Positions 43,359 through 61,403 of a stretch of 64,000 bases of DNA are shown in pieces; position 1 is the first letter of the stretch; each line of letters begins with the position of its first letter. The DNA comes from a virus. The position numbers were made by a program, and so were the translations under genes. The DNA lies in the IMG/VR virus record IMGVR_UViG_3300047160_002053, positions 32,001 through 96,000 of that record; one strand, written 5' to 3'. The notes under the pieces were generated by a model. It made no database searches. It worked only from the letters and a program-made list of their open reading frames with translations, and was not told the DNA's origin.

Positions 43359-43382
43359 GTTTACACCCTAATTAGCCTACTC

Positions 43383-43390: not shown

Positions 43391-43438
43391 GCAGTTATTC
43401 AGAATCGGCCATATCTCTTATATCAGATCTCTAATTAA

Positions 43439-43469: not shown

Positions 43470-43529
43470 GCTTGTATCTGGCGCTTAGACCGGATATATT
43501 GAATCTAGGACTTGCAGAAAGGGAATCCA

Positions 43530-44041: not shown

Positions 44042-44064
44042 TATATTACTTTCGGAGGTAATCA

Positions 44065-46545: not shown

Positions 46546-47037
46546 TTATTTTACCTTCAATCCCCATTTTTTAGCAAGCTCTTTTCGTCTTGCTTTATGA
46601 AGGCTTTCGGATTGAAGGTGCGTCTTTCCATCGAGATGATCTGTCTCGTGCTGAACGCAGACTGAATGGATTCTTTTGAAAACTTTTTCTTGCTTTGCGC
46701 CAGTCTCGTCTTGATATTCTAGCTTAACCCAGTCCGCTCTTTCTTGAAGCGTGAGTTTTTCTCCAGGAGCGCTCAGGCATCCTTCCTCTAGGTTCGCGGA
46801 CGCAACTGACTTTGAAACGATCTTAGGATTTACGATGTAAAGCTTTTCCCCTTCTGGACCAAGCATAGTGAACATGCGGAAAGTCAGGCCGACCTGATTT
46901 GCAGCAAGTCCCATGCCATTATTTGCTACCATGGTTTCCCACATGGAATCCAAAAGCGTCTTCAGCTCTGGACCAAAAACAGTGACTTCTTTGCAGACTT
47001 GGAATAGTTCCGGAGATGGAAATTTAAGGATATTCAT
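46546..47037 (-). CDS. def: peptide deformylase
   Basis: All three PDF motifs: GMGLAANQVG, EGCLS, QHETDHLDG. Confidence 0.95.
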   Translation of the reverse strand: MNILKFPSPELFQVCKEVTVFGPELKTLLDSMWETMVANNGMGLAANQVGLTFRMFTMLGPEGEKLYIVNPKIVSKSVASANLEEGCLSAPGEKLTLQERADWVKLEYQDETGAKQEKVFKRIHSVCVQHETDHLDGKTHLQSESLHKARRKELAKKWGLKVK

Positions 47038-47176
47038 TCAGGGTCTCATTAAGCTCTTTAACGCGAGAAACAAAGGATTTAGGGTCCTTCTGATCTGTTA
47101 TTTTACGCACTGTATAAAATCCAGCAGAAGCTAGAACTACAGCCCATATCAAATAGATTATCGCCGCGTGTCTCAT
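47024..47176 (-). CDS. small single-TM protein (50 aa, not in ORF track)
   Basis: MRHAAIIYLIWAVVLASAGFYTVRK...; ATGA overlap. Confidence 0.5.
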   Translation of the reverse strand: MRHAAIIYLIWAVVLASAGFYTVRKITDQKDPKSFVSRVKELNETLNEYP

Positions 47177-47517
47177 TTGAAACGCCATTCAAGATTCAAG
47201 GAGTATTTATCTACTCCGATCTGACTTGTAATTTTATCGCAAAGGCCAAAAGTTGGCGCATTGAATTGAACTGATTTTTCTCGGACGGTTTTGGCTAGAA
47301 ATACGCCTCCGCCTACGACATCGAAAGTCGTGTCGCCCAAAAGATAGTGGACTTCTTGCTCGGCATCTTTGGAAACTTTTTTCTCTGCTGTATCAATATT
47401 CTGAATGATGCCCGACTGTTTGCCGCCAGCTTCCATAGCTTTAGAACAGGCTTCGTGACCGTTACCACTAAACCCTGTACATGACGCTGCAATGATTAGA
47501 GCTGTTACGCTACCCAT
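47173..47517 (-). CDS. hypothetical envelope-associated protein
   Basis: ATG 47517 with GGAG RBS; N-terminal hydrophobic + Cys pair; ends YSLNLEWRFK. Confidence 0.65.
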   Translation of the reverse strand: MGSVTALIIAASCTGFSGNGHEACSKAMEAGGKQSGIIQNIDTAEKKVSKDAEQEVHYLLGDTTFDVVGGGVFLAKTVREKSVQFNAPTFGLCDKITSQIGVDKYSLNLEWRFK

Positions 47518-47749
47518 CGTCTCCGTCTTCTGGATGAGTTGAATTCCAAAAGTCCTTATCGGCCTGTTCGTTTCGTTCCGCCATGGGAACTTCATTGTTT
47601 AAAATTTCTTCAGAGAGAGCAAACATGTGCTTTTCAAGACGAAGCTTGTTTCCTTCACCTTTAGTAGACTTCAACCCATCAGACAGTTGTCTTAGCGCTG
47701 TACCAGCGTCTATTTTACCTTGTCTATATGAGTCACAAACCTTGCACAT
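47510..47749 (-). CDS. hypothetical protein (79 aa, N-terminal CxxC)
   Basis: AAGGA RBS; packed ORF. Confidence 0.6.
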   Translation of the reverse strand: MCKVCDSYRQGKIDAGTALRQLSDGLKSTKGEGNKLRLEKHMFALSEEILNNEVPMAERNEQADKDFWNSTHPEDGDDG

Positions 47750-48117
47750 TTCCTTTTCTCCTTAATATAATTTTTGCATTTTTCTAATTCTGAGTCAATA
47801 AATTTCTTATTATTGAGCAATCTATTGCGCCCAGAAGGATGCGGAAGCTTAAAATGTTGAATATTGAGACGTTCTAGCTCTTTTGACGCCTCATTTCCTA
47901 AAGCTACATAGGTGTGACGACGAATACGTGTCTCATCATCTGCCGCCATAAGCCAAACAGGAATCTGGTTCTTGTTCGCGAGCATTACGAACGTAATGTC
48001 AACGTCCATCTTCCAGATCCAGTCTAAAAGAGTTTTGTAGCTTTGAGTTCCTACGAAAGGAATTACCTGGCTCACGTTCTTTGGGCTAGGTTTATCGCCA
48101 ACAAAAATGGTGTACAT
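47710..48117 (-). CDS. minimal uracil-DNA-glycosylase-superfamily protein
   Basis: 'FVGDKPS', 'PFVG', 'VALGNEA', 'LPHPSGRNR' match UDG motifs A and B. Confidence 0.65.
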   Translation of the reverse strand: MYTIFVGDKPSPKNVSQVIPFVGTQSYKTLLDWIWKMDVDITFVMLANKNQIPVWLMAADDETRIRRHTYVALGNEASKELERLNIQHFKLPHPSGRNRLLNNKKFIDSELEKCKNYIKEKRKCARFVTHIDKVK

Positions 48118-48118
48118 C

Positions 48119-49351
48119 TCAATGCTCGTCCGTGTTCGTGTGATCGGCGAGATAGTCTTCTGATACCCATTTCAAAGCTTGTTTGTTGCCTTCGATGCTG
48201 TAATTCTGCGCAGCTTTAATGGCGATACCTTCGCGGACTTTCTCCGATTTGTCATTGAACATCGAAGCGCCCTTAGTCAAATGATAAGCCATGTCCTTGT
48301 TGAAAGGACCTTTGTAAAGAACTGGAACATATTCAAATCCACGCTCTTTAGCGAAAGCTTCTACGTCATCGGGAGTAAGCCATTCTTGAGTTCCATCTGG
48401 AAGAATACGCTTTACGTCAAAAAGAATAAATTTGTGTTCGGTTAATCCGTATGAATAACCCTTTTGGATACCAGGACCTACGATCTCACCGAAAACGCTC
48501 TCGCCAAGCTTCAACTTATTGAAAACGTCGAGTTTCTTGAATACATTGCCCCAAACATCTTCGCTGTAAAATCCAGGACCTTTCACTGCAGATTTATCGA
48601 CCAAGTTAGAGCCGTAACACTGCTCAACTTTAGGAGCAATGCGAAGCAAAAGCTTGATTCGTTTCATCAAAGTAGTTGGACGGAACGGAAGAAGTGCTGC
48701 GCGAGCGTTGGTACCGTGGAGTTTCTCTTGGATAACAACCTGCTGACCTTCTTTGAACATATTAGGAAACCATTTAATATTTCCCAATCCGTTGTAGCGA
48801 TGAAAAAGAGGATGCGGATTTTTCGCATTTCGGCTCTTAGGCATTCCAGTATTTACGCGAGCTTCTTTAACAGGCGGCTCGTATTTCGTAACGTTCAAAA
48901 TCTTACGAAGATCTTGTTCATCAGAGAAATAGTCTGGATTAACAATTGATTTAACCGTCTGAGGGTCAACGATCATACCTTGAGAAGCCAATCCACGAAT
49001 CTTGATCTGGCGCACACGATGATGATGCAGCTTGATTTTAGAATCAGGTGGAATCAAAAGATCTTCTAAATCTGGATTCAAAACAGAATCAATAGGAATG
49101 TAGATGACTTTATCGCCGATCTTGTATTTACCTTTCTGGGTAATTACTTGGAAGCCATAAATAGTGGCAACTTCAAGGCGTTCAGCGTTATTATGCGGCT
49201 GAATGTCCAAAATCTTTGTGTAAGGAACTTTATAGCCGGAGCCGCTTTCTTCTTCTGCGACTTCAACCACTTCTGGATTTCCAGAAGGAATCAAATTCTC
49301 TTGATAAGAGCTAGGAACCGATTTAAAAAGGTTTTTTACCATCTCAAGCAT
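48119..49351 (-). CDS. ATP-dependent RNA ligase (DRB0094/Rnl5-like, N-terminal OB domain)
   Basis: N-term 'I..H.NAERLEVA...G.QVI..KG.Y..GD..IYIPIDS'; motif I EKLHGTN, FGEIVG, FDV, VPVL, REG, K.VS..YL. Confidence 0.9.
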   Translation of the reverse strand: MLEMVKNLFKSVPSSYQENLIPSGNPEVVEVAEEESGSGYKVPYTKILDIQPHNNAERLEVATIYGFQVITQKGKYKIGDKVIYIPIDSVLNPDLEDLLIPPDSKIKLHHHRVRQIKIRGLASQGMIVDPQTVKSIVNPDYFSDEQDLRKILNVTKYEPPVKEARVNTGMPKSRNAKNPHPLFHRYNGLGNIKWFPNMFKEGQQVVIQEKLHGTNARAALLPFRPTTLMKRIKLLLRIAPKVEQCYGSNLVDKSAVKGPGFYSEDVWGNVFKKLDVFNKLKLGESVFGEIVGPGIQKGYSYGLTEHKFILFDVKRILPDGTQEWLTPDDVEAFAKERGFEYVPVLYKGPFNKDMAYHLTKGASMFNDKSEKVREGIAIKAAQNYSIEGNKQALKWVSEDYLADHTNTDEH

Positions 49352-50235
49352 TAGAAATCTCCTTCATCACATTGTAGGCAGGTGAATCCGCGACTGCGCC
49401 ACATTTCCACTACCTGTTTCCTATCATCAATCATAAACTGGGGCTCATACCTTGTCAACAATTCAAAATCCAAGATAATTTCTTTTACGATTGAATCTTG
49501 TCTCGAATCGTGACGATTTCGCATGTAAAGATCGTAGTCGTCTTTTTCATACCATCCAATTTTATCTGCAATCCAGTCCTTAGTGATCTTACGTTGATTA
49601 TCATCTCTGCCAGAGCAGAACACGAGCTTGAACCTTGGGATCAATCCATCAATGACATCGACGCACCACTGATTGACAGTATCGTCTTTAATGCCAGCGA
49701 AGAACGCAGGCCAGTTTTTCTTGCTACCGTCAGTAGGGCGAACAAAATGACGGCGGTGTTCTACGTTACAAAGAGTCCCATCCAAATCAACGATGATCGC
49801 TTTTGGCTTTGGGCCGTCTGGATAAATGAAATTAAGACGACCTTCATCTATAGTAGGACGTTCATATTTAGTGAAAAAAGTCTGAAGCGCGCCTCGGGCC
49901 GACTTCTCATCGTTGATAGTCTCATGATTGCCGAAACGATTACGGACGCGCTCTAGGCAAACTTCATAAGGCTGATGAAGAACAATGATTTCTACATTAA
50001 CTTCGGGGTTCTTAAATTTTGCGTAATCAATGTACTTTGCTCGCTGTTGCTTATTGAAGTTCATGCGATCAACGATAATATCTTTTCCAGACATGACTGC
50101 CTCAAAGAAAATATCCATATGAGCGCCTGATTGCGAATCCTGGTTCACATATATCGCGCCAGTTTCGGCGACAAGCTGACGAGCTTTAGTAGACTTACCA
50201 GATCCAGGAGGACCAACCAAAAGTGTGAGTTTCAT
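49351..50235 (-). CDS. pseT: polynucleotide 5'-kinase / 3'-phosphatase (T4 PseT-like)
   Basis: P-loop GPPGSGKST fused to HAD DLDGTL ... SGR ... DDRKQVV.MWR..G..C.Q. Confidence 0.9.
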   Translation of the reverse strand: MKLTLLVGPPGSGKSTKARQLVAETGAIYVNQDSQSGAHMDIFFEAVMSGKDIIVDRMNFNKQQRAKYIDYAKFKNPEVNVEIIVLHQPYEVCLERVRNRFGNHETINDEKSARGALQTFFTKYERPTIDEGRLNFIYPDGPKPKAIIVDLDGTLCNVEHRRHFVRPTDGSKKNWPAFFAGIKDDTVNQWCVDVIDGLIPRFKLVFCSGRDDNQRKITKDWIADKIGWYEKDDYDLYMRNRHDSRQDSIVKEIILDFELLTRYEPQFMIDDRKQVVEMWRSRGFTCLQCDEGDF

Positions 50236-50474
50236 ACTTCTTCTTCCGTAGCCTTTCTAAAATCTTCAGGGTGGAGCATTGTAGTTATCTTACCATCGTA
50301 ATCGGTGACAATGCAATGGCCAACTGCTGGATGGTGTTCGGCCAAGAAATGAACGATGTCGCCGTATTTTAAAGGATGTCCAGGCCATACTTCGGCACCC
50401 TTTTTCTTGCTTTTGGACCATTTTGGTTCAAAAACTATGGCATCACCTGCTTTAAATTTAGCGCGTCGCTTCAT
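50232..50474 (-). CDS. hypothetical SH3-like protein
   Basis: ATGA-coupled on both sides. Confidence 0.65.
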   Translation of the reverse strand: MKRRAKFKAGDAIVFEPKWSKSKKKGAEVWPGHPLKYGDIVHFLAEHHPAVGHCIVTDYDGKITTMLHPEDFRKATEEEV

Positions 50475-51355
50475 ACTTTCTCCACCAATTTTTGGATTTG
50501 ACGTAAGATTCCTTTGTAATGGTCTTCCGTTTGGATCGCACCTTCAAGAGACCCGTAATACTCCTCCAAACACTCAAGGAGGATCTTTTTGACCGCTGGC
50601 TGATCTGGGCGATGGCGCAACTTAGAATTGGCGTAGACCTCATCTAAACGCTTTTCCTGCGCATGGAAATGATCTTGAACCTGCTTCATTGTCCATCCAC
50701 CACGGCGAATCTCTTTCAATTGCTCATGATTACGTTGAAGATCAATGTCATGTTCAGTTAAGATCTGTTCTGCCTCATTCAAAAGACGAACTACATGGTA
50801 CGCGAACTTAACGTCATATCCGTGCTCTTGAATGCTCGCATAGCGCTTTGACGAAGGATCTGGATTCTTAATTTCCATCTTATGCATTTGCGAATATGCG
50901 TAGCCACGGAAGGTGTGCCATGAGCCTTTGTGCAAGAAAATCTTACGATTGTCGCGAACATGATTAGCAATTTTCGTAGCCTGCAATACGCAGTTTTGCG
51001 GAGTAAAAAGAGAATCAATCATGTTAGGGTTATTGCCCATAACAAGCTGAAAGTATTTAACAATGTTATAGATATTAAGATCGTACTCCTTACGAGTATC
51101 TTTCTCAATTACGTGGTGCTGTTGGAATTGTTCAAATCTTTGAATCTGATCGCCAAAGCCGTGGATTTCTCCAGCAAGATGCGGAAACACCATATCTTTT
51201 GGTGGAATGCAAAATCCATAAAGATCCATGTCGCTAGTGTCAGAAGATACTGCGTATGCGACAGATCCCATGATCGTCAAATATTGAGTGCCGCCGATAA
51301 CAAATGAAGGTGGCTTGATCAAACCTTTACTGTGGAGTCTTTCAATTAAAGTCAT
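50471..51355 (-). CDS. Pol-beta-superfamily nucleotidyltransferase (RlaP/YcgL-like)
   Basis: GSVAY...SDMD catalytic motif, 'NNPNMIDSLF', 'GYA.SQ', 'YD.KFA.H.VRL'. Confidence 0.85.
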   Translation of the reverse strand: MTLIERLHSKGLIKPPSFVIGGTQYLTIMGSVAYAVSSDTSDMDLYGFCIPPKDMVFPHLAGEIHGFGDQIQRFEQFQQHHVIEKDTRKEYDLNIYNIVKYFQLVMGNNPNMIDSLFTPQNCVLQATKIANHVRDNRKIFLHKGSWHTFRGYAYSQMHKMEIKNPDPSSKRYASIQEHGYDVKFAYHVVRLLNEAEQILTEHDIDLQRNHEQLKEIRRGGWTMKQVQDHFHAQEKRLDEVYANSKLRHRPDQPAVKKILLECLEEYYGSLEGAIQTEDHYKGILRQIQKLVEKV

Positions 51356-51549
51356 TCTATCTCTCTTTCGTATTCCGCGAACCATACGAATCCGAAGCTC
51401 GCGATTGCCATTGTAATGGCTATACTTGCTTCTTCAAGACTATCACCAACTGAGCGGTGAAGCAAGCTTCCTGCTGCAGCTCCTAAGAATACACCTATGA
51501 CGCGGGACAGCGATCCCCAGAAAGACCTTTTAAGTGCCTTCTTGTCCAC
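51352..51549 (-). CDS. two-TM small membrane protein
   Basis: GTG 51549; two hydrophobic helices. Confidence 0.5.
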   Translation of the reverse strand: MDKKALKRSFWGSLSRVIGVFLGAAAGSLLHRSVGDSLEEASIAITMAIASFGFVWFAEYEREIE

Positions 51550-52132
51550 CTTCGGACGCAGCTTTCTTTTGGCGTGCTTCTTCTTCAGCTTCTTTAAGGA
51601 GCTTTTTATATTTTGAAGAAAGCTTGTGAATCGCTTCTTTAAGGTGTTTAGTTTGGAAGCCGCCGCCTTCCCATTCCGTTTGGATGAACCTGTTTTTCCC
51701 GTGGACATCTATAATTCCCCAATCGTTATCGTCGATAACAATGTAATGATCAACTTCTGGATGTGCATTAAGCCAAAGCTGAATCTCCAAGCCTCGATTC
51801 CCGCCCCAATCAGATGGAGTGCGATCAATGACCCGTTTTGAATCAATTTTATACGATGCCAGTTTTTCTCTCAACCAGTCAAGAGAAAAATGTTCCCGCC
51901 AAGTGGAAGAAATCACGATCTTGGCTTCTGGATACTGGAATAAAAGTTCTTGAAAATTTGCGGTACAAACATTGCAGAGCGTTTCCATCACTGGACCGCT
52001 AACGCCCTGTTCTTTGTAACGTTTACGACGATTGTGCTCATAAACAAAAGACCCTTCGGAGTTCAAAACTCCATCAAAGTCCAAGAAAATTACAGCATAA
52101 GACTTTTGAGGTGCTTCACTATTAGAATCCAT
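51530..52132 (-). CDS. HAD phosphatase, 'Swiss Army Knife' RNA-repair-like family
   Basis: IFLDFDGVLN, IVISSTWR, RG.EI..WL..HP, YIVIDD. Confidence 0.85.
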   Translation of the reverse strand: MDSNSEAPQKSYAVIFLDFDGVLNSEGSFVYEHNRRKRYKEQGVSGPVMETLCNVCTANFQELLFQYPEAKIVISSTWREHFSLDWLREKLASYKIDSKRVIDRTPSDWGGNRGLEIQLWLNAHPEVDHYIVIDDNDWGIIDVHGKNRFIQTEWEGGGFQTKHLKEAIHKLSSKYKKLLKEAEEEARQKKAASEGGQEGT

Positions 52133-52539
52133 GAGTTCTCCGGATTGTGTACGTCGAAATGAATAAACTGGCCACCATTGGCCTCAAATTTAGTTTTCCA
52201 TTTCTCTGCGTTGTCGTCAATCAAAAAATCGCCTTTGAATAGGCCCTTGTCCTGTGTCAGATTGATTTTATTGATCAAGTCTGGGAAATACTTACCTATC
52301 CATTCTACTTTTTCTTGATACGAATGAGCGCTTTCGGCGACAGGCTGACTTAAAATATGAACATCGTATCCCATTCGCATAATTTGTCGAACGGCGACCT
52401 GTGCGCCAGCGATGGGCTTAAGATTAAGAAAAAATCCAGGTTCGTACATAAGGGATACGTCGAACCCGCTTTTGAAAACTTCAGCGCCTAGAAAATCGGC
52501 GATGGTGTCGTCAAGATCTATGTATACGATTTTCTTCAT
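52090..52539 (-). CDS. 5'(3')-deoxyribonucleotidase (NT5C-like HAD)
   Basis: DLDDTIADF, 'GFF.NL.PI.GA', 'EK.EWI..YFP', 'GDFLIDD'. Confidence 0.85.
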   Translation of the reverse strand: MKKIVYIDLDDTIADFLGAEVFKSGFDVSLMYEPGFFLNLKPIAGAQVAVRQIMRMGYDVHILSQPVAESAHSYQEKVEWIGKYFPDLINKINLTQDKGLFKGDFLIDDNAEKWKTKFEANGGQFIHFDVHNPENSWILIVKHLKSLML

Positions 52540-52987
52540 TCTTCCATCCGTTTTTGTTATTTAGACTCTTATTGAAATAATATAAAATCTCCATTTCTGC
52601 TGAAATTTCATTTGGTCTATGGCCAACATAGCTTGCTGTAAGTTCTCTCAATTTTAATAAATTTAATGCTTGTTTCTTTTTAAGAATTAAAAAAGGTAGT
52701 ACGTCTCTGATTATCTTTTCTGTTGCTACTCCAGTAGAAGAATATTTCAAATAATCAGCCGTGGCGGGGAAAGAACGAAGTTTATTGGTAGATTTACATG
52801 CTGCCCAGCTGCCGCCATACTGATGCACAAGCTGATTCATAAAATCAATAGAAATATCAGATTTCTTCCATGAAAGCTGTATCATCGCTGTATAATTTTT
52901 AAGTGGGCGATTGACATGTCTTTTCGCAATCGAAAAAGATCCGTCTGAATCAAGAACGCCAGCTAAATAGGCATAGTTAATACTCAT
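52511..52987 (-). CDS. free-standing LAGLIDADG homing endonuclease (single motif)
   Basis: YLAGVLDSDGSF motif, 'PFLILKKKQA'; visibly more AT-rich than its neighbours. Confidence 0.9.
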   Translation of the reverse strand: MSINYAYLAGVLDSDGSFSIAKRHVNRPLKNYTAMIQLSWKKSDISIDFMNQLVHQYGGSWAACKSTNKLRSFPATADYLKYSSTGVATEKIIRDVLPFLILKKKQALNLLKLRELTASYVGHRPNEISAEMEILYYFNKSLNNKNGWKNEENRIHRS

Positions 52988-53007
52988 AAACCCTCCTGCA
53001 CTGTCTT

Positions 53008-53036
53008 ATATTACCAAAACAGTCGGCTTTACGCAA
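53008..53036 (-). promoter_or_regulatory. sigma70-type promoter of the LAGLIDADG gene
   Basis: TTGCGT-17-TAATAT followed by AGGAGG RBS. Confidence 0.6.
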
Positions 53037-53039
53037 GAA

Positions 53040-54734: not shown

Positions 54735-54876
54735 AAATATCTCCGTGTTTGTCTTGACATTTTCCGCATTCGTAGCATCCAACCATTTTATTGCCGCCTG
54801 TAGTCCAGATGGTCATTGGTCGGTGGAGATTTATCAGGCAATGAATTTGCCATTTTATCCAGTATAAAGTCAACAT
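54709..54876 (-). CDS. small zinc-binding protein (55 aa, not in ORF track)
   Basis: MLTLYWIKWQIHCLINLH...CYECGKC... between nrdB and nrdA. Confidence 0.55.
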   Translation of the reverse strand: MLTLYWIKWQIHCLINLHRPMTIWTTGGNKMVGCYECGKCQDKHGDIYVAKRVEK

Positions 54877-54877
54877 G

Positions 54878-55837
54878 TTAATCCCAAATTTTTGTGAAAT
54901 CGACCGAGCCCTTCGAGTAATCTGTTACGCGCTGAGCAAAAAAATCCGCGTGAGATACGCCTGCCGACATAACATCGAACCAAGACATACGTGACAGGGA
55001 TTCCTTGTCGATATTTTTCCAGTTACTTTTAAGACCTAGATCTTGCAACTTTGTATTCGCACGATGACGAATAAATGCTTTTAGATCGGCGGGATCTAAC
55101 CCTTCGATAGGACCAAGCTCAAAAGCCTTGTCAATGAAAGCATCTTCCAATGCAACAGTATGACGAGCAGCTTCATAAATGTCCTTTTTAAGATCATCAG
55201 TCCAAATATCTGGAAATTCCTGAATTAGTGTACGAAATAGCCAGCATCCAGCTTCAGAATGCAACGATTCATCTTTGATGGAAAACGCAATGATCTGGCC
55301 TAAACCTTTCATTTTATTGAAACGACTGAAATTGAGCAAAACGGCAAATGAACTGAAGAGATTCACGCCTTCATTGAAAGCCGAAAAGATAGCCAAGGAA
55401 CGAGCGATCTCTTCCTTAGATTTTCCCTTCGTTTCAATGAGTCGATCAATCTTTGCTTTTGCTGTAGGCTCATGTAAAAAAGCCGAAAAGTCTTCCAAGC
55501 CTAGAGATTGATTCAAATACGCATACGAAACGGCATGAATAGACTCAAACGCCGAAAAGGTAGCTGCCATCATTTGAATTTCAGGCTTTTTGAACCACTT
55601 AGCCACCATTTGGGACCAGTATTCTTGGATGAACACTTCGGATTGTGTAAATCCTTTAAGGATATGCCCGATAACGTTCTTCTCTGCCTCTGATAAATTC
55701 AATTTCCAGTCATTGATGTCTCCGGCCATTGCGATTTCGGTATGAAGCCAGTGACTTTGTTGCTGTAATTCCCAATATTTATATGCTTGATCGTATTCAA
55801 ACGGAGCATACGTTGCCCTAGGCGTCAGAAGACTCAT
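54878..55837 (-). CDS. nrdB: ribonucleotide reductase class I beta subunit
   Basis: PFEY, W...EI, FTQSE, ESIHAVSY (radical Tyr), EGVNLFSSF, DESLH, DFF..RVTDY. Confidence 0.95.
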   Translation of the reverse strand: MSLLTPRATYAPFEYDQAYKYWELQQQSHWLHTEIAMAGDINDWKLNLSEAEKNVIGHILKGFTQSEVFIQEYWSQMVAKWFKKPEIQMMAATFSAFESIHAVSYAYLNQSLGLEDFSAFLHEPTAKAKIDRLIETKGKSKEEIARSLAIFSAFNEGVNLFSSFAVLLNFSRFNKMKGLGQIIAFSIKDESLHSEAGCWLFRTLIQEFPDIWTDDLKKDIYEAARHTVALEDAFIDKAFELGPIEGLDPADLKAFIRHRANTKLQDLGLKSNWKNIDKESLSRMSWFDVMSAGVSHADFFAQRVTDYSKGSVDFTKIWD

Positions 55838-55861
55838 CCAATGCTCCCCTTTCTCTGATGT

Positions 55862-56164
55862 TTACTGATCAGCGTCTACGATTTCTTTAACTTTTACTTT
55901 GAATTCTGCTGCTTTTTGCTTGTTTACCTGTCCCATCATGTGCAATAACGTAATGTTCACGACGATAGAGGAAACAATTAGGAGGGCAGTTGAATTGAAA
56001 AAGGTCATGTTGGCCAAAATAAGGATCAAATTCGAGAAAAACATCAGTCCACCGAAATTGACGCCATTAAGAAACATTCCAGTCACAAATTTACGACCAG
56101 CCAGTCTCAAAGCCTTCTGCTGATCCTTACTCAAATCTTCAAATTTTTTAGATGTGACACTCAT
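55862..56164 (-). CDS. membrane protein (2 TM)
   Basis: Hydrophobic core; ATGA coupling. Confidence 0.65.
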   Translation of the reverse strand: MSVTSKKFEDLSKDQQKALRLAGRKFVTGMFLNGVNFGGLMFFSNLILILANMTFFNSTALLIVSSIVVNITLLHMMGQVNKQKAAEFKVKVKEIVDADQ

Positions 56165-56352
56165 CTTCCGCCTCGCGACTCACGGGCCATAATTTTCTCG
56201 ACTACTTCAGGAAGCTTTCTAGGAGACAGTCCTTCCATTTTCATCAACTCGGCGAATCTTACAATCGCCTGTTCTGGGTCTGATATTCCAGTTTTTTCTA
56301 CGATCCATGCAATCTGGCCAAAAGTAAGGCGCATTCTGTGATTATTGCTCAT
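56161..56352 (-). CDS. hypothetical protein (63 aa)
   Basis: TAATG coupling. Confidence 0.6.
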   Translation of the reverse strand: MSNNHRMRLTFGQIAWIVEKTGISDPEQAIVRFAELMKMEGLSPRKLPEVVEKIMARESRGGR

Positions 56353-56705
56353 TATGAATTGGAGTGCATAATCGCACTCACGCCTCTTACTTGAACTGAC
56401 GTTGCATCTCCAGAATCGTTTTTAGATAGAACCGATGCGTCAATTCCATATTCAAAGCGATGCTCGATTGTAGTCAGAGATTCGACCAACGAAACGTCGG
56501 CGAGAAGGACTTCTCCTTCCTGTCTAAGATTCTTGTAGGCACCCACTACGCGCTCGGGACGTTTTTCATAGTTGAGATAAAGCAAACCATCTTTCTGCGG
56601 GATGTCAAATTTACAGTCGGAGGCAATCGACTGGCCGTATCCATTTGGATTTTTCTCAATCTTAAAGACCATTTGGGTCTTCTGTTCGCTCAATTTTGTC
56701 TGCAT
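56352..56705 (-). CDS. hypothetical protein (117 aa)
   Basis: GGAGG RBS. Confidence 0.7.
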   Translation of the reverse strand: MQTKLSEQKTQMVFKIEKNPNGYGQSIASDCKFDIPQKDGLLYLNYEKRPERVVGAYKNLRQEGEVLLADVSLVESLTTIEHRFEYGIDASVLSKNDSGDATSVQVRGVSAIMHSNS

Positions 56706-56726
56706 GGGTCCTCCGGATATTTTATA

Positions 56727-56960
56727 TCATTTCTTTGACTGCGGGGCTTCGGATTTCGGTCCATAAAACACGGGATGGCTTCCGTCGCCATAAGTTTCTA
56801 GGCCAAGCATGTGAGTCTCTGCCCATTGCAGAAAAAGACCGATAACTTCGTGCCGCTGTAGGCCGTGATCAAGCAGCATTTCGAAATAAAGAGGCTCAAG
56901 CTCTGCGGTGATCTTACCTAGAGGCCTGATCTTTTTCTTTTTTCGAGATTTCTTTGCCAT
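56727..56960 (-). CDS. hypothetical protein (77 aa)
   Basis: GGAG RBS; basic N-terminus. Confidence 0.65.
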   Translation of the reverse strand: MAKKSRKKKKIRPLGKITAELEPLYFEMLLDHGLQRHEVIGLFLQWAETHMLGLETYGDGSHPVFYGPKSEAPQSKK

Positions 56961-57236
56961 TTACCACTCCAGCCTGAATGCCAGTGTACATCTTTCTTTG
57001 CCGATTTGCAAACTAAAATGGTTCGGTAGACGCACTGTGCCAGTTCCTCCTGCGGCTACATAAAGAAAAGGACCAACGGTAGCGATAACCTTTGGTCCTA
57101 CAAACTCTTCAACTTTCTTTTCATTTGTTTCTACGATCCTTCTAAAATCAGGATGCGTATTGTAATAATGCGCCGATGTTTCGGTGCATCCTTTTGACGT
57201 AGTGCAAGCTAAAAGAACCAGCGCTTCAGGTAGCAT
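56961..57236 (-). CDS. hypothetical envelope-associated protein, paralog of 47173..47517
   Basis: MLPEALVLLAC..C...EKKV...QIG...LAFRLEW. Confidence 0.6.
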   Translation of the reverse strand: MLPEALVLLACTTSKGCTETSAHYYNTHPDFRRIVETNEKKVEEFVGPKVIATVGPFLYVAAGGTGTVRLPNHFSLQIGKERCTLAFRLEW

Positions 57237-57837
57237 TCTCTGCCTGTACGATCTTGATGAGTTCATCAAGCGAAACAGGTGCGTAACCGTTAACATCTAC
57301 GCCGACATTGATCATGAGAGTGCCTTTGGGAGAACGTCGCGTGCGCCATTTTTCATGGACATGACCGCAAATTAAAATCTTGCCGTCATCTTCTGGACGC
57401 CATTTGGCGTACTTATCTCCGCCGTTCTCGATCTCATAAGGACCCGCATACGGGTGATGACACATGCGAACAAGTCCGATGCCAGGCAAATCGACTACAG
57501 TTTGTTCCGGAAGAATCTTAAATCCAAACTCTTCATATTTCTGAATCCATTTGGCGCGATTTTCTTCGGAACGAGATTTTTTATGATAAGAATGGCAGAA
57601 ATCGTGATTACCAGGAACCAAAAGCTTGGTGCCCATGAGACGTTGAGCGTAAGTTTCTACGGCTCGAAAAGCCAAAGAAAAGTCGCCAAGATTGTAAACC
57701 GTGTCTTCCAGCTTTACAATGCTGTTCCATTTTAGAATCATGTCTTCGTTCATCACCGCAGCGTCTGGATATGGACGACTGCAATATTTAATTACGTTTT
57801 GATGCCAGTAATGCTGGTCTGAACTAAAATAAATCAC
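57226..57837 (-). CDS. calcineurin-like metallophosphoesterase
   Basis: SDQH, LGD, GNHD, CHHP, GHVH motifs. Confidence 0.9.
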   Translation of the reverse strand: MIYFSSDQHYWHQNVIKYCSRPYPDAAVMNEDMILKWNSIVKLEDTVYNLGDFSLAFRAVETYAQRLMGTKLLVPGNHDFCHSYHKKSRSEENRAKWIQKYEEFGFKILPEQTVVDLPGIGLVRMCHHPYAGPYEIENGGDKYAKWRPEDDGKILICGHVHEKWRTRRSPKGTLMINVGVDVNGYAPVSLDELIKIVQAENAT

Positions 57838-58460
57838 GGAACCATCCTTTCGATCTCCATACGCACGCGCTCTGGAGTCGTTTTCTGGTAAGCTTCGTTG
57901 AACATCTCTCTACAGGCCCGAAGTGATTTGGGATGACCTTCAAAGCCTAGTTTAGCAAGAAATCGGTAAAAACGGAACACTCTTAAATAATCTTCTCGAA
58001 TTCTATCGTGAGGTCTTCCGATGAATTTGAGGGTACGACTTTTGATATCCGATATTCCTTTGTTTGGATCAATAAATTTTACTTCAACGGGATCGTAATA
58101 GATTGAATTGATCGTAAAATCTCGCCTTGCTGCGTCATCTTCGAGCGTGCCAATTTCAGTTCTATCTGGTCTGCGCCCATCGGTAAATCCTGCTTCTTTA
58201 CGGAAATTTGCAATCTCGAATTGTTGATGCTCTTTGGATACTGCGTAGACAAGGAAGTTTTCTCCAACGGCATCCACTTTCCAACCATTGTTATCGAATT
58301 CTCCACGTAATGTCTCCATATTTGCATCAGTCACAATATCATAGTCTTTAGGCTTACGACCTAACAGCATATCGCGCACGCATCCACCGACAAGATACGT
58401 GTTTTTGCTCGCATTGCGAACCAATAAAAATAACTGCAAAAGTAGCAAATTATCAATCAT
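57834..58460 (-). CDS. class II tRNA nucleotidyltransferase (CCA/poly(A) polymerase head+neck), minimal
   Basis: VGGCVRD, DYD, 'FEIANFR', RRDFTINS, EDYLR..R..RF; only 208 aa. Confidence 0.9.
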   Translation of the reverse strand: MIDNLLLLQLFLLVRNASKNTYLVGGCVRDMLLGRKPKDYDIVTDANMETLRGEFDNNGWKVDAVGENFLVYAVSKEHQQFEIANFRKEAGFTDGRRPDRTEIGTLEDDAARRDFTINSIYYDPVEVKFIDPNKGISDIKSRTLKFIGRPHDRIREDYLRVFRFYRFLAKLGFEGHPKSLRACREMFNEAYQKTTPERVRMEIERMVP

Positions 58461-58744
58461 AGTAACGGCAATTCTTTCAAAAATTCTGACACGTCGCGAC
58501 CATAAGCAGCGAACGCAGTCATAGAATTATCCCAGAAAGGCTCCAGGAATTTTGCTTTATTTCTAGTTGGCACTTTTTTATAAAGTGCTTTCAGTTTTTT
58601 CTCGTCCTTGACGCCAAGATACACGAGGGTTCCATTGGTCCATCCCATCTTTTTCCTCAACAGGAGTTCAGCAAGAGCGTGACCGCCTTGAACTGCCTGC
58701 TGAGCTTTCGACATGTCTGAACGCACAACAACGTACATTTTCAT
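58457..58744 (-). CDS. peptidyl-tRNA hydrolase type 2 (Pth2)-like protein
   Basis: 'KMYVVVRSDMS..Q.AVQ.GHA', 'LV.L.V..E..L', 'F.EP.....TA.A'. Confidence 0.7.
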   Translation of the reverse strand: MKMYVVVRSDMSKAQQAVQGGHALAELLLRKKMGWTNGTLVYLGVKDEKKLKALYKKVPTRNKAKFLEPFWDNSMTAFAAYGRDVSEFLKELPLL

Positions 58745-58747
58745 AAA

Positions 58748-59869
58748 TCACTCGAAATAGTTCGGAACGAAGAAACTTGTGTTCCCTGTAATCAATTTTT
58801 CATCTTCACGGATACCTACGCCAACCGGATCAGCGCCGACAATCCAGCTACCAATCACAGGACGGTATCCACCGATTTCTGGAAGAGTGAAAAGCTCCTG
58901 ATAAATATGGCCTTCTTCGCCATATTCTCCGTCTTTTTCTTGAAGAGTTTTGCCAGTTTCGTCAACCAAAGTAACGTTGGCACCTTCGCGAGAAAAGATA
59001 GGCTTTTTCACGTATCCCTTGCCTTGAAGCGGCTCGAACTTAGATTCAAGCAGCAAAGGGTGATTAGGATACATTTCCCAGAGAATTGGGAGCAAACCTT
59101 TATTTGACAAGATCATCTTCCATGCTGGCTCAATTAGACGGCATTTGTCTTTCAAAAGAGCCTCGCCAAAATCTTCGTGAACCATGAATTCCCACGGATA
59201 TAGCTTGAACATATATTCAATGACGTTTTCATCGCCATCGTAAAAATACTCGCCATCACATCCAACTTCGTCTATGAAAAGGAATTCAACGTTGTGACCG
59301 GCTTGTTGAGCAAGATCCATGATGTATTCTGTATTGCGGAAATCCTCAAGACTTTCACGAACACACGTAAAATAGATCTTTGAAGGATTTTCTTTTTCTT
59401 TCAAATACTTCCATTGTTCAATAGAAGCTTCATGGATCGAATTGAATTGGTCCTTAAGCTTACGATCTTCTTTCCAATACCACTGGATCAATCCAGCTTC
59501 CAGAAAAGAAGTAGGAGTGTCCGCATTGTATTCGTACATTTTGATTTGCCCATCTTTCATAGCCAAATCAAAGCGGCCATAGAACGTGAAGTCATCTCGT
59601 TCCCACGACTTTTTGATCAATGGAATACACACATCGGGAATTTGAAGTTTCGCAAAAAGATTTTTGTCGATGACATGTTGCACTGCTGCAAGACACATGT
59701 CTGAAAGCTCTTTAGATGCTGCATAAAGCTTTTCAACTTCTTCAGAAGTGAATTTATAGCCAGCTTTTTCTTGCCAGTACGGAATATCATCTACAGTGTG
59801 ATAGTCAAACCCGTATTCCTGCAAGCGTTTCAGATAATCAGTGCGGAAAAAGAATTTTTCTCGTTTCAC
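58748..59869 (-). CDS. glutathionylspermidine-synthase-like ATP-grasp ligase (YgiC/YjfC family)
   Basis: YGRFD, YEYNADTPT, FKLYPWE, EPAWKMILSNK.LL..LW, KPIFSREGANV, GIRED. True start is GTG 59869 (GGAGG RBS), not 60037. Confidence 0.92.
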   Translation of the reverse strand: MKREKFFFRTDYLKRLQEYGFDYHTVDDIPYWQEKAGYKFTSEEVEKLYAASKELSDMCLAAVQHVIDKNLFAKLQIPDVCIPLIKKSWERDDFTFYGRFDLAMKDGQIKMYEYNADTPTSFLEAGLIQWYWKEDRKLKDQFNSIHEASIEQWKYLKEKENPSKIYFTCVRESLEDFRNTEYIMDLAQQAGHNVEFLFIDEVGCDGEYFYDGDENVIEYMFKLYPWEFMVHEDFGEALLKDKCRLIEPAWKMILSNKGLLPILWEMYPNHPLLLESKFEPLQGKGYVKKPIFSREGANVTLVDETGKTLQEKDGEYGEEGHIYQELFTLPEIGGYRPVIGSWIVGADPVGVGIREDEKLITGNTSFFVPNYFE

Positions 59870-59870
59870 A

Positions 59871-60359
59871 TTAACCTCCGATGCTCGCGTGACCGTAAGA
59901 TCCGAATCCTCCACGGCTGATCGCCTTGCCAGAAACTCCTGTTCCAGCTGCGCGGCCAGAAGTAGCGACCGCTGCCTTTCCGACAGTAGCTTCAACGCCG
60001 CCGCCCGATGCGATCTGAGTGTGAGTGAAAGTTTCACCAGTTTGATAGATCACGCCGCGAGAATAAACCGTAGAGCGACCGATCCAGTAGCCGTTGTAAA
60101 ATCCGCTGTGGCCATAGTAACGATATGGATACGCAGGGCCAAGATAATAAGTCTCACCGTTTTGAGTGACTTTCTCGCAAAGCTTCGACGGATCAAAATC
60201 ATCGTCATCGTCGAGATTTTTTGCAATCTCAGCTTTCGGATTATCGTTAACGCAGTCACCTTCAGAACCGTATTTATTTCGGACATCTGCATCCGGACGG
60301 CTCGAACAGGAGATCAAGGCGAACATCGAAAGAGGGAGTAAAAGTGTACGTTTTTTCAT
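59871..60359 (-). CDS. YgiB/YjfM (DUF1190)-like lipoprotein
   Basis: Lipobox LISC, Cys pair, Gly-rich tail 'SRGGFGSYGHASIGG'; immediately upstream of the YgiC homolog. Confidence 0.75.
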   Translation of the reverse strand: MKKRTLLLPLSMFALISCSSRPDADVRNKYGSEGDCVNDNPKAEIAKNLDDDDDFDPSKLCEKVTQNGETYYLGPAYPYRYYGHSGFYNGYWIGRSTVYSRGVIYQTGETFTHTQIASGGGVEATVGKAAVATSGRAAGTGVSGKAISRGGFGSYGHASIGG

Positions 60360-60889
60360 CGTTTATACGCTCCTAGCGGGTGATTTATTCCTAAAATCCT
60401 CATAGCCCATAGCTTATCACCATATTGAAAGCCATGCAAGGTCGAAGTGTGAACAAAATTCTCTTTTTGAGACTCTAACATATCGGAATCATCGTCGATT
60501 ATAACGTAATCGGTGACTTCTGGATGTCTATTTAGCCAGTCTTGAATTTCTTCTCCGCGTGGTTTACCAGGAAAACGCGGAGTAACGTCAATAACTGCCT
60601 GCGACACGAGCTTAGCGGGAGAAAGAATATTCTTAAGCGATTCTACGGTTTCTCCTAAACGCCAAGTAGATGAAACGACAATTTTAAGATCTGGGACTTC
60701 TCGAATCAAATCCTCTACGTTATTCAGAGCAATGGGATCAAATTCCTGGGCAAGATATTCTTTTAGAGAACCTTTCCAATCTTCATACATCTCATTTTCC
60801 CATTTAGTTTGATCCCTCTTGTGACGCCAAAAGTTAAAGGATTGATGAGAATTTAAGACGCCATCAAAATCTAGGAATATAACTCTCAT
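60356..60889 (-). CDS. second 'Swiss Army Knife' RNA-repair-like HAD phosphatase
   Basis: IFLDFDGVLN, IVVSSTWR, RGEEIQDWL..HPEV, YVIIDDDSDM. Confidence 0.85.
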   Translation of the reverse strand: MRVIFLDFDGVLNSHQSFNFWRHKRDQTKWENEMYEDWKGSLKEYLAQEFDPIALNNVEDLIREVPDLKIVVSSTWRLGETVESLKNILSPAKLVSQAVIDVTPRFPGKPRGEEIQDWLNRHPEVTDYVIIDDDSDMLESQKENFVHTSTLHGFQYGDKLWAMRILGINHPLGAYKR

Positions 60890-61257
60890 GGCTTTTCCAT
60901 ATCGCAATGATAACACACGATTTTAGTATGCGTGAAACCAACTTCCACCCATTTGTGATCGCATCCCTTTTTTTCTTCTTCTGGAGGCATGTAACCATAA
61001 AAAGGATTCCATGTGCTGCTTTTAGGAAGCTTATCGTTAGTATCAGCTGGTGCGTAATCTACTCCAATTTCATTTCCATGTTCATCAATTTTTGTCCATA
61101 TAGCAAAGGCATCAGACATCGCGTATGGAATAGGGCCTTTATCAGGGAAAGAATCCCATGTAACCCAAATATGATCGGATGCCGTGGAAACATAATCCAC
61201 TTTGCCGGTCAGACCATTTTCATTAACAATGAAGCGATCTCCCTTATTTAATTTCAT
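60886..61257 (-). CDS. hypothetical protein (SH3-like N-term, Cys/His C-term)
   Basis: 'KLNKGDR...G.V' and 'CDHKW...CYHC'. Confidence 0.65.
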   Translation of the reverse strand: MKLNKGDRFIVNENGLTGKVDYVSTASDHIWVTWDSFPDKGPIPYAMSDAFAIWTKIDEHGNEIGVDYAPADTNDKLPKSSTWNPFYGYMPPEEEKKGCDHKWVEVGFTHTKIVCYHCDMEKP

Positions 61258-61403
61258 GGCTTATCCTTATGTTTTTTCTTGCGTGTGTATTTAGTTTTAT
61301 CTGGAACTATTTTTGTGTAATGTACTCCAGCACGAGGAGCTTTCTGCGAAAGCTTTTTTAGCTCCTCTTTCTGTTTTTTCGTGAATGCAGATACCTTTTT
61401 CAT
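61254..61403 (-). CDS. ArfA-like small basic protein (49 aa, not in ORF track)
   Basis: MKKVSAFTKKQKEELKKLSQKAPRAGVHYTKIVPDKTKYTRKKKHKDKP; ATGA overlap with the next gene. Confidence 0.55.
   Translation of the reverse strand: MKKVSAFTKKQKEELKKLSQKAPRAGVHYTKIVPDKTKYTRKKKHKDKP

What the first reader, a model, noticed from the sequence alone, without database searches (positions are those of the whole stretch)
46546..61403. Co-oriented tRNA-repair plus ribosome-rescue toolkit: candidate anti-defence system that keeps translation running
Seen, within ~15 kb on one strand: RNA ligase next to PNKP, an RlaP-type nucleotidyltransferase, two RNA-repair-type HADs, a metallophosphoesterase, a CCA-type enzyme next to a Pth2-like protein, peptide deformylase and an ArfA-like peptide. 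Known: T4 Pnkp+Rnl1 heal and seal tRNA cut by PrrC; CCA enzymes restore 3' ends; Pth recycles drop-off peptidyl-tRNA; ArfA rescues ribosomes on non-stop mRNA. Inference: the set covers anticodon cleavage, CCA-end removal or blockage, peptidyl-tRNA accumulation and stalled ribosomes. That would make it a layered counter to tRNase/mRNase abortive-infection systems. Each gene is known from phages individually; the near-complete chain in one locus is the notable point.
Basis: partly seen in the sequence, partly recalled or inferred. Interest (0 to 1): 0.75.

Follow-up and report, generated by a model that had tools for sequence, protein, structure and literature searches.

The report
Phage RNA-repair and tRNA-upkeep gene cluster
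An uncultured large phage carries a real cluster of RNA-mending and tRNA-upkeep genes, but this kind of kit is already described in big phages and the claimed ArfA-like ribosome-rescue peptide is not supported.

Summary
Nine of the ten named families are confirmed at the stated coordinates. They are peptide deformylase, an RNA ligase (DRB0094/Rnl5 type, not T4 Rnl1), T4-type PNKP, RlaP, two HAD_SAK_2 phosphatases, a metallophosphoesterase, a half-length CCA-type nucleotidyltransferase and a 95-aa Pth2-fold protein. The "ArfA-like" 49-aa peptide is not ArfA by any profile test. It belongs to DUF7230 and shares only a short K..Y.RK.KH motif with ArfA.

Co-orientation carries no information, because about 21 kb here lies on one strand. 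The set is also interleaved with ribonucleotide reductase, NT5C, a GSP-synthase-like ATP-grasp, HNH endonucleases and about 12 unknown ORFs.

Related IMG/VR phages keep HAD_SAK–RlaP–PNKP–ligase…deformylase. Two of them carry a T4 Rnl1-type ligase in the same slot. The Pth2-like gene and short CCA enzyme occur only in the two records that also carry a nearby tRNA-Ala. Across 72 viral loci the mini-Pth2 gene lies a median 126 bp from a tRNA gene.

The repair-plus-rescue concept is published (Iyer et al. 2021; RaK2 2013; mycobacteriophage tRNA arrays 2018). This scan has also reported CCA–PTH2–RlaP sets on other phage DNA. Verdict: real, a new member of a known kind, low-to-moderate interest.

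The parts
46546..47037 (-). Peptide deformylase (163 aa), with GMGLAANQ, EGCLS and HETDH motifs
   Evidence: PF01327 E 6e-39. TIGR00079 is over its cut-off. Motifs seen. Conserved at the end of the module in G001, G002, G004 and G005.
47173..47595 (-). Unknown ORF (114-140 aa) that sits beside the deformylase gene
   Evidence: No family hit. Homologues lie next to PDF in G002, G004 and G005. Only one other homologue was found by word search.
47710..48117 (-). Weak UDG-superfamily-like ORF (135 aa) between the ligase and the deformylase
   Evidence: PF03167 E 7.5e-5, below its cut-off. Homologues occupy the same position in G004 and G005. G002 has a DUF1643 protein there instead, with no pairwise similarity to this ORF.
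48119..49351 (-). ATP-dependent RNA ligase of the DRB0094/Rnl5 type, with an N-terminal OB domain; motif I is K210 in KLHG
   Evidence: PF09414 E 5e-24 and PF21189. TIGR02306 171 bits, cut-off 151. Sequence read. G002 and G005 have a T4 Rnl1-type ligase in this slot.
49351..50235 (-). T4-type polynucleotide kinase-phosphatase (P-loop GPPGSGKS; HAD DLDGT)
   Evidence: AAA_33 and HAD_PNKP E 3e-32. Motifs seen. 49-54% identical homologues in G001, G002, G004 and G005.
50471..51385 (-). RlaP-family Pol-beta nucleotidyltransferase (GS...DMD)
   Evidence: PF10127 E 7e-19. 65-71% identical in G002-G005. The published biochemistry of the family is addition of 1-2 NMP to RNA 3' ends (PMC12776372).
51530..52132 (-). 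Stand-alone HAD_SAK_2 phosphatase, copy a (DFDGV)
   Evidence: PF18143 E 9e-28. Motif seen. Lies directly upstream of RlaP in G002 and G005 too.
57226..57837 (-). Calcineurin-like metallophosphoesterase (DxH, GD, GNHD, GH)
   Evidence: Metallophos_2 E 5e-8. phrog_547 E 3e-39. PDB 1xm7 E 2e-11. Motifs seen. Its start overlaps the stop of the CCA gene.
57834..58460 (-). Half-length class II CCA/poly(A)-type nucleotidyltransferase: head and neck only, motifs A, B, D and E present, no body or tail
   Evidence: PF01743 E 4e-36. Aligns to residues 54-240 of the 420-aa CCA enzyme 6ibp. Only this record, G002 and G003 have the 207-210 aa form; 53 of the other 56 phage homologues are 351-559 aa, and three sit inside open frames of about 2190 aa.
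58457..58744 (-). Mini Pth2-fold protein (95 aa)
   Evidence: In 72 viral loci the nearest tRNA gene is a median 126 bp away, always on the same strand.
60356..60916 (-). Stand-alone HAD_SAK_2 phosphatase, copy b (DFDGV)
   Evidence: PF18143 E 3e-30. 68% identical homologue in G005.
61254..61403 (-). 49-aa basic peptide, a DUF7230 relative (invariant DKTKYTRKxKH); not an ArfA family member and not a conserved part of the module
   Evidence: Absent from G001-G005.

Best explanation
The region is the start of a long leftward gene block of an uncultured phage of roughly 165 kb. Two known kinds of RNA-maintenance genes lie there among nucleotide-metabolism genes.

(1) A break-repair module: HAD_SAK phosphatase, RlaP, PNKP and RNA ligase. 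PNKP, the HAD enzymes and the metallophosphoesterase would heal 2',3'-cyclic-phosphate/3'-phosphate and 5'-OH ends. RlaP would add back one or two lost nucleotides. The ligase would seal the break. A deformylase gene trails this module in all relatives.

(2) A tRNA-island set linked to the phage tRNA-Ala gene: a Pth2-fold protein and a half-size CCA-type nucleotidyltransferase, with the metallophosphoesterase next door. These would free and rebuild tRNA 3' ends.

The families, intact motifs and conservation pattern are shown. The substrates, and the role as a counter to tRNA- or mRNA-cutting host defences, are inferred from published work on these families.
For: - Family assignments are over the curated cut-offs, with intact catalytic motifs.
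- The Pth2 fold is confirmed.
- Related records G001, G002, G004 and G005 keep PNKP, the ligase and PDF in the same order; G002, G004 and G005 also keep RlaP and a HAD_SAK gene upstream of it.
- The ligase next to PNKP is Rnl5 type here and in G001 and G004, but T4 Rnl1 type in G002 and G005. This is a non-orthologous swap in one slot.
- In a region where only 8 of 22 ORFs are shared with G005, 6 of the 9 RNA/translation genes are shared against 2 of the 13 others (hypergeometric p about 0.02).
- In G002 the set is contiguous: tRNA-Ala, mini-Pth2, short CCA, MPE, NT5C, HAD_SAK, RlaP, PNKP, Rnl1, PDF.
- Similar clusters recur in unrelated phages. L040 has RlaP, CCA, Rnl and PNKP within 4 kb. 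Rhizobium phage RHph_I1_18 has an aa-tRNA hydrolase, RlaP and an MPE about 3 kb from a five-tRNA cluster.
- All phage tRNA genes examined encode their own CCA, so the CCA enzyme would repair ends rather than mature them.
- Supporting literature: PMC7824862, PMC12776372, PMC3622015, PMC5966550.
Against: - There is no functional data and the host is unknown.
- The genes are interleaved with RNR, NT5C, a GSP-synthase-like gene, HNH genes and unknown ORFs.
- There is no excess of promoter- or terminator-like sites to define an operon.
- G000 and G005 are colinear genome-wide (66 of 124 ORFs shared), so conserved order partly reflects relatedness.
- G003, a complete related genome, has only RlaP and the short CCA from this set. 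G005, also complete, has neither CCA, Pth2 nor a tRNA.
- The short CCA lacks the tRNA-binding body and tail.
- From memory of S. solfataricus Pth2, the catalytic Lys aligns with Gln/His in the mini-Pth2 family and the catalytic Asp aligns with Glu.
- Characterised Rnl5 enzymes seal nicks in duplexes rather than anticodon-loop breaks (recalled knowledge).
Confidence: 0.6

Rival explanations
1. One integrated, layered anti-defence system covers anticodon cleavage, CCA loss, peptidyl-tRNA build-up and stalled ribosomes, and includes an ArfA-type rescue peptide.
For: - All the enzymatic layers except ArfA are present.
- p49 and E. coli ArfA share K31, K36, Y39, R41, K42, K44 and H45 at the same residue numbers in an ungapped alignment.
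- The motif is invariant in the p49 family.
Against: - There is no ArfA profile match at any threshold.
- hhalign probability is only 1.8-6%.
- p49 belongs to DUF7230.
- p49 is absent from all five related records. Four other viral loci that carry it hold none of the repair genes, and only one has a tRNA gene, about 7.7 kb away.
- The full set exists only in G000 and G002.
- Deformylase is a maturation enzyme, not a rescue factor.
Confidence: 0.08
2. The genes serve housekeeping for the phage rather than counter-defence. They are auxiliary genes that raise the capacity of infected cells: nucleotide supply (RNR, ThyA, NT5C, HADs, the PNKP 3'-phosphatase), upkeep of tRNA ends during heavy translation, and deformylation of bulk phage protein. 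They sit together only because this is the phage's auxiliary-gene region.
For: - The neighbours are ThyA, MazG, RNR, NT5C and a nucleoside deoxyribosyltransferase.
- A divergent RNR also sits next to HAD_SAK and RlaP in G005.
- The mini-Pth2 tracks tRNA genes, not the repair enzymes: 64 of 72 loci have a tRNA within 3 kb, against RlaP in 5, CCA in 5 and PNKP in 1.
Against: - The ligase swap beside PNKP indicates selection for a heal-and-seal pair.
- RlaP and HAD_SAK are families defined by their RNA-repair neighbourhoods.
- RlaP prefers damaged RNA ends in vitro (PMC12776372).
Confidence: 0.22
3. Chance co-location. Unrelated accessory genes have accumulated in a plastic early region through homing-endonuclease-driven gene traffic, with no shared function.
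For: - The region is less conserved than the genome as a whole: 8 of 22 ORFs are shared with G005, against 66 of 124 genome-wide.
- HNH genes lie at 52511-52987 and 61576-62304, next to segments that are absent in G002.
Against: - RNA-related genes are preferentially retained.
- The same families cluster in unrelated phages.
- Two ligase families occupy the same slot.
Confidence: 0.1

Closest known systems
Phage T4 Pnkp + Rnl1 tRNA restriction-repair pair (the counter to the PrrC anticodon nuclease)
   Same: A PNKP with the same kinase-plus-HAD-phosphatase architecture lies next to an ATP-dependent RNA ligase. Sister phages G002 and G005 carry a true Rnl1-type ligase in that slot.
   Different: The ligase in this window is the DRB0094/Rnl5 type with an N-terminal OB domain, not Rnl1. 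PF09511 is absent from this genome. RlaP and stand-alone HAD_SAK phosphatases are added. No PrrC-type host is known for this phage.
RNA-repair and ribosome-rescue gene sets of large phages (Iyer et al. 2021, PMC7824862; Klebsiella phage RaK2, PMC3622015)
   Same: The same inventory: ATP-grasp RNA ligase, polynucleotide kinase, phosphoesterases, RlaP, a CCA-adding enzyme, PTH2 and phage tRNAs. The same proposed role against host attacks on tRNA.
   Different: This phage is smaller (about 165 kb by comparison with G003 and G005). Its CCA enzyme is half length and its Pth2 is a 95-aa mini form. A deformylase trails the module consistently.
PTH2-like genes inside tRNA arrays of cluster C mycobacteriophages (PMC5966550)
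   Same: A Pth2-family gene is embedded in or next to phage tRNA genes, and was read there as extra ribosome-rescue capacity.
   Different: Here the family is a shorter environmental clade. Its only hits among GenBank phage genomes are weak ones to Lak megaphages. The tRNA linkage is very tight across 72 loci (median 126 bp, same strand). In this window, insertions have pushed the tRNA-Ala about 6 kb away.
E. coli ArfA (alternative ribosome-rescue factor A)
   Same: Similar size, and a basic C-terminal K..Y.RK.KH motif at the same residue numbers.
   Different: There is no significant profile similarity. The rest of the sequence is unrelated. The peptide belongs to DUF7230.

Membership tests
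T4-type polynucleotide kinase-phosphatase (Pnkp) | N-terminal P-loop kinase plus a C-terminal HAD (DxDxT) 3'-phosphatase in one polypeptide of about 300 aa | tested here: met
   AAA_33 at residues 3-106 and HAD_PNKP at 144-294, E 3e-32. GPPGSGKS and DLDGT are present.
Rnl5 / DRB0094-type RNA ligase | A match to TIGR02306 over its cut-off, an N-terminal OB domain and a motif I lysine | tested here: met
   171.1 bits against a cut-off of 151.15. PF21189 OB domain. K210 lies in KLHG and REGIAIK is present.
T4 Rnl1 RNA ligase | A match to PF09511 (RNA_lig_T4_1) | tested here: not met
   No PF09511 match in G000. It is present in the equivalent slot of G002 and G005.
RlaP nucleotidyltransferase | PF10127 over its cut-off, the Pol-beta G[GS]...DxD signature, and a neighbouring RNA ligase | tested here: met
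   69 bits against a cut-off of 23. GSVAYA...DMD is present. The ligase lies 1.1 kb downstream.
Class II CCA-adding enzyme | Head-domain motifs A-E | tested here: met
   GGCVRD/DYD, RRD, EDYLR and RVFRF are present. PF01743 E 4e-36.
Class II CCA-adding enzyme | Full-length architecture with the body and tail tRNA-binding domains, and a score over the equivalog cut-offs | tested here: not met
   The protein is 208 aa and aligns only to residues 54-240 of a 420-aa enzyme. NCBIfam scores are 141.8 against 290 and 148.5 against 305. No separate C-terminal gene was found.
Peptidyl-tRNA hydrolase Pth2 | The Pth2 fold and family-level sequence similarity | tested here: met
   Family profile against 2zv3, E 5e-6. 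AF2 pLDDT 94.8. The top 13 Foldseek hits are all Pth2, with TM 0.67-0.79. Single-sequence Pfam is just under its cut-off.
Peptidyl-tRNA hydrolase Pth2 | Canonical catalytic Lys and Asp (K18/D86 of S. solfataricus Pth2, recalled from the literature) | tested here: inconclusive
   In the HMM alignment the Lys position is Gln/His in the mini family, and the Asp aligns with the nearly invariant E68. Activity cannot be tested here.
ArfA | A match to PF03889 or to solved ArfA chains | tested here: not met
   No match at E<=10 in the genome, in hmmscan or in the PDB. hhalign probability is 1.8% and 6.4%.
DUF7230 (PF23876) | A match to the family profile | tested here: inconclusive
   p49 itself scores 18 bits against a cut-off of 27. 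However, 30 of 33 profile-search relatives hit DUF7230, best E 8e-6.
Peptide deformylase | TIGR00079 over its cut-off and the three metal-site motifs | tested here: met
   124.8 bits against 103.95. GMGLAANQ, EGCLS and HETDH are present.
HAD_SAK_2 (HAD of Swiss-Army-Knife RNA repair proteins) | PF18143 over its cut-off and the DxDGV nucleophile motif | tested here: met
   97.9 and 105.8 bits against a cut-off of 27.5. DFDGV is present in both copies. Both are stand-alone proteins, not fused.

The most novel reading that the evidence does not exclude
The 49-aa peptide and its wider DUF7230 family are a previously unrecognised class of small ribosome-binding factors. Their invariant C-terminal DKTKYTRKxKH tail would occupy the empty mRNA channel as ArfA's KGKGSYxRKxKH tail does. 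That would give phages, and bacteria that lack ArfA, an analogous sensor of stalled ribosomes.
Probability: 0.07. Interest if true: 0.7.

Novelty: new member of a known kind. Interest (0 to 1): 0.3.

Why it matters
The cluster adds an environmental phage lineage to the list of phages that carry RNA heal-and-seal enzymes together with tRNA-end upkeep genes. Three details deserve a specialist's attention:
- Sister phages swap between Rnl5-type and Rnl1-type ligases next to the same PNKP.
- A conserved half-size CCA-type enzyme lacks its tRNA-binding domains.
- A 95-aa Pth2-fold family is almost always placed beside phage tRNA genes.

None of these changes the published picture that large phages carry repair kits against tRNA-targeting defences.

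Tried and rejected
- **Close cultured relative:** a megablast of the 15-kb region against GenBank phages found nothing. Only distant protein matches exist.
- **The look-up of encoding contigs:** IMG/VR loci were used instead.
- **ArfA membership:** rejected. The ESM Atlas returned only unnamed small-protein clusters and DUF7230.
- **Split-gene idea for the short CCA enzyme:** tblastn with the C-terminal halves of 12 full-length phage CCA enzymes found nothing in G000 or G002. This is a weak negative, because these domains diverge fast.
- **CCA enzyme needed for maturation of phage tRNAs:** rejected, because all phage tRNA genes examined encode CCA.
- **UDG-like ORF and G002's DUF1643 as the same gene:** no pairwise similarity.
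- **Operon boundaries:** promoter- and terminator-like sites are no more frequent than in shuffled sequence.
- **PHROGs and Pfam on the small ORFs** at 55.8-57.3 kb and on h123, h162, h80 and h140 gave nothing.
- **Not run:** no complex prediction was made, because I do not claim that any two of these proteins bind.
- **Not readable:** Burroughs & Aravind 2016 (PMC5062991) is not held in the library. It is cited only through PMC7824862.


Full report
**Setting**

The window is bases 32001-96000 of a 104,162-bp linear IMG/VR virus record that CheckV rates about 65% complete. Two complete relatives are 164.5 and 168.8 kb, so the whole phage is probably about 165 kb. GenBank phages hold no close relative. 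From about 44.6 kb to beyond the window's end every gene lies on the minus strand. The co-orientation of the finding's genes therefore says nothing. A single tRNA-Ala(UGC) gene lies just past the window's end (genome 96762-96837, minus strand). It sits at the head of this leftward block.

**Check of the observation**

Pfam, NCBIfam and PHROGs confirm the following genes:
- Peptide deformylase, 46546-47037.
- RNA ligase, 48119-49351.
- T4-architecture PNKP, 49351-50235.
- RlaP, 50471-51385.
- Two stand-alone HAD_SAK_2 phosphatases, 51530-52132 and 60356-60916.
- A calcineurin-like metallophosphoesterase, 57226-57837.
- A PolyA_pol-head nucleotidyltransferase, 57834-58460.

Catalytic motifs are intact in all of these.

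The ligase is not Rnl1-like. It passes the curated cut-off of TIGR02306 (the DRB0094/Rnl5 type) and has the N-terminal OB domain.

The Pth2-like ORF (58457-58744, 95 aa) is just under the Pfam threshold on its own. It has 89 homologues of about 95 aa. A profile built from them hits archaeal Pth2 2zv3 at E 5e-6. An AlphaFold model (pLDDT 94.8) has Pth2 structures as its 13 best Foldseek hits (TM 0.67-0.79). The fold assignment is therefore sound.

- NT5C.
- NrdA and NrdB.
- A GSP-synthase-like ATP-grasp (E 8.5e-142).
- An HNH endonuclease (a second one lies just past the finding's end, at 61576-62304).
- A weak UDG-like ORF.
- About a dozen ORFs with no family.

The flanks carry ThyA, an Rrf2-type regulator, MazG and a nucleoside deoxyribosyltransferase.

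**The ArfA claim fails**

The 49-aa peptide (61254-61403) gives no match to PF03889 in hmmscan at E<=10. A six-frame search of the whole genome also finds nothing. There is no NCBIfam hit and no match to solved ArfA chains.

Profile-profile comparison with E. coli ArfA aligns only the 17-residue basic motif. The probability is 1.8%, or 6.4% with a 33-member profile. It is not evidence of homology.

An exhaustive profile search found 33 small proteins that share an invariant DKTKYTRKxKH. Thirty of them hit DUF7230. No paper mentions that family.

The peptide is absent from all five related records. Four other viral loci that carry it show none of the repair genes, and only one has a tRNA gene, about 7.7 kb from the peptide. 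It is not part of the module.

**What relatives show**

Five related IMG/VR records were fetched whole. G005 and G003 are complete. G005 shares 66 of 124 ORFs with this genome, largely in the same order. G003 shares 52.

- G001, G002, G004 and G005 keep PNKP, the ligase and the deformylase in the same order. G002, G004 and G005 also keep RlaP and a HAD_SAK gene upstream of it.
- The ligase beside PNKP is the Rnl5 type here and in G001 and G004. In G002 and G005 it is a T4 Rnl1-type enzyme (PF09511, E about 1e-23). Two unrelated ligase families in one slot next to the same PNKP is the best evidence here that this is a selected heal-and-seal unit.
- The region as a whole is plastic. Only 8 of 22 ORFs are shared with G005. 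Six of the nine RNA/translation genes are among the shared ones, against two of the thirteen others (one-sided hypergeometric p about 0.02, from the counts).
- In G002 the whole set is contiguous: tRNA-Ala, mini-Pth2, short CCA, MPE, NT5C, HAD_SAK, a membrane ORF, RlaP, a SLOG/DprA-like ORF, PNKP, endonuclease VII, Rnl1, DUF1643, two small ORFs, deformylase, HAD_SAK.
- G005 has a divergent RNR next to HAD_SAK and RlaP, as this window does.

**Two sub-modules**

The mini-Pth2 occurs only in this record and G002, the two that have a tRNA-Ala gene on the same strand upstream of it. The short CCA enzyme occurs in those two and in G003. G005 has no tRNA, no CCA enzyme and no Pth2. G003 has nine tRNAs, a tmRNA and the short CCA enzyme directly after an eight-tRNA array, but no PNKP, deformylase or mini-Pth2.

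The link to tRNA genes was measured across IMG/VR:

| Locus set | Loci | tRNA gene within 3 kb | tRNA gene within 500 bp | Median distance to nearest tRNA gene (loci that have one) |
|---|---|---|---|---|
| mini-Pth2 | 72 | 64 | 50 | 126 bp, always same strand |
| CCA-type enzyme | 59 | 5 | 2 | about 3.0 kb (10 loci) |
| RlaP | 16 | 0 | 0 | about 6.4 kb (6 loci) |

In the same 72 mini-Pth2 loci, RlaP appears in 5, CCA in 5 and PNKP in 1. The Pth2-fold gene is therefore a tRNA-island gene rather than a partner of the ligase module. All phage tRNA genes examined encode their own CCA, so a CCA enzyme would repair ends rather than mature them.

**Oddities of the tRNA-end genes**

The CCA-type protein is only 208 aa. 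It aligns to residues 54-240 of a 420-aa CCA-adding enzyme and keeps motifs A, B, D and E. It lacks the body and tail that hold the tRNA.

Of 59 phage homologues, only the three closest (72-76% identical, 207-210 aa) have this form. Of the other 56, 53 are 351-559 aa and three lie inside open frames of about 2190 aa. No separate C-terminal gene was found.

In the mini-Pth2 family, the position that aligns with the catalytic Lys of archaeal Pth2 (recalled from the literature) is Gln/His. The Asp position is a nearly invariant Glu. Its chemistry may therefore differ from that of canonical Pth2.

**Mechanism**

The most likely reading has two parts.
- **Break repair.** PNKP, with the HAD_SAK and metallophosphoesterase enzymes, heals the ends of cleaved RNA. 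RlaP restores one or two lost 3' nucleotides, as shown for Pseudomonas RlaP (PMC12776372). The ligase then seals the break.
- **tRNA 3'-end upkeep.** The Pth2-fold protein and the short CCA enzyme act on tRNA 3' ends alongside the phage tRNA.

The families, motifs and conservation pattern are shown. The substrates and the counter-defence purpose are inferred. A housekeeping role in the phage's auxiliary-metabolism region remains a serious rival, given the nucleotide-metabolism neighbours.

**Comparison with what is known**

- Iyer et al. 2021 (PMC7824862, section 3.4.9) describe exactly this inventory in large phages: RNA ligases, polynucleotide kinases, phosphoesterases, RlaP, CCA-adding enzyme, PTH2 and phage tRNAs. 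They read it as repair and ribosome rescue after host attacks on tRNA.
- The RaK2 genome paper of 2013 lists CCA enzyme, PNK, RNA ligase and Pth2 in one phage.
- PTH2-like genes inside phage tRNA arrays were noted in 2018.
- A cultured Rhizobium phage has an aa-tRNA hydrolase, RlaP and a metallophosphoesterase about 3 kb from a five-tRNA cluster.
- Earlier reports of this scan describe CCA–PTH2–RlaP sets in several coliphages and a Klebsiella phage.

The finding is a new member of a known kind.

**Verdict**

The genes are real and mostly correctly named. The ArfA element is not supported. The "one integrated layered system" reading is only partly supported. The concept is already published. 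Interest 0.3.

Noticed in passing
L106-L177 (72 IMG/VR loci); window 58457-58744: The 95-aa mini-Pth2 family sits a median 126 bp from a tRNA gene. Fifty of 72 loci have one within 500 bp, always on the same strand, and the tRNA is usually directly downstream. Its only hits among GenBank phage genomes are weak ones to Lak megaphages.
   Followed up: partly
window 57834-58460; G002 42950-43567; G003 130573-131190: A conserved half-length (207-210 aa) class II CCA-type nucleotidyltransferase without the body and tail domains. In G003 it starts 45 bp after an eight-tRNA array.
   Followed up: partly
window 61254-61403; P0096-P0127: The DUF7230-type small proteins share an invariant DKTKYTRKxKH tail, and some have Cys-rich N-termini. 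No literature exists on the family.
   Followed up: partly
window 63317-63778: A 153-aa ferritin-like ORF with weak Rubrerythrin/COQ7 hits. Homologues lie about 0.5 kb from the mini-Pth2 gene in three unrelated viral loci (L130, L153, L160). It might be a tRNA-modifying di-iron hydroxylase, but this is untested.
   Followed up: no
window 58748-60037: A full-length GSP-synthase-like ATP-grasp (PF03738, E 8.5e-142) between the Pth2-like gene and the second HAD_SAK. It is absent from G001-G005.
   Followed up: no
window 52511-52987 and 61576-62304: Two HNH endonuclease genes lie next to segments that G002 lacks: RNR plus small ORFs, and the segment from the GSP-synthase gene to p49. This suggests gene traffic linked to homing endonucleases.
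   Followed up: no
G002 38721-39200 (L099 18721-19200) and G005 162240-162641 (L097 2240-2641): In relatives a small SLOG/YAcAr/DprA-like ORF sits between RlaP and PNKP. This window has an unrelated 80-aa ORF (50232-50474) in that place.
   Followed up: no
G003 142799-143196 and 129596-130528: The complete related phage G003 encodes a tmRNA (tag DADFEQAAA) and nine tRNAs. It lacks homologues of this window's PNKP, deformylase and mini-Pth2 genes.
   Followed up: no
window 43778-44594: A short plus-strand islet with a MazG-like pyrophosphohydrolase (44065-44448) lies inside the minus-strand block. An Rrf2-type regulator (44903-45235) and ThyA (45518-46384) follow on the minus strand.
   Followed up: no
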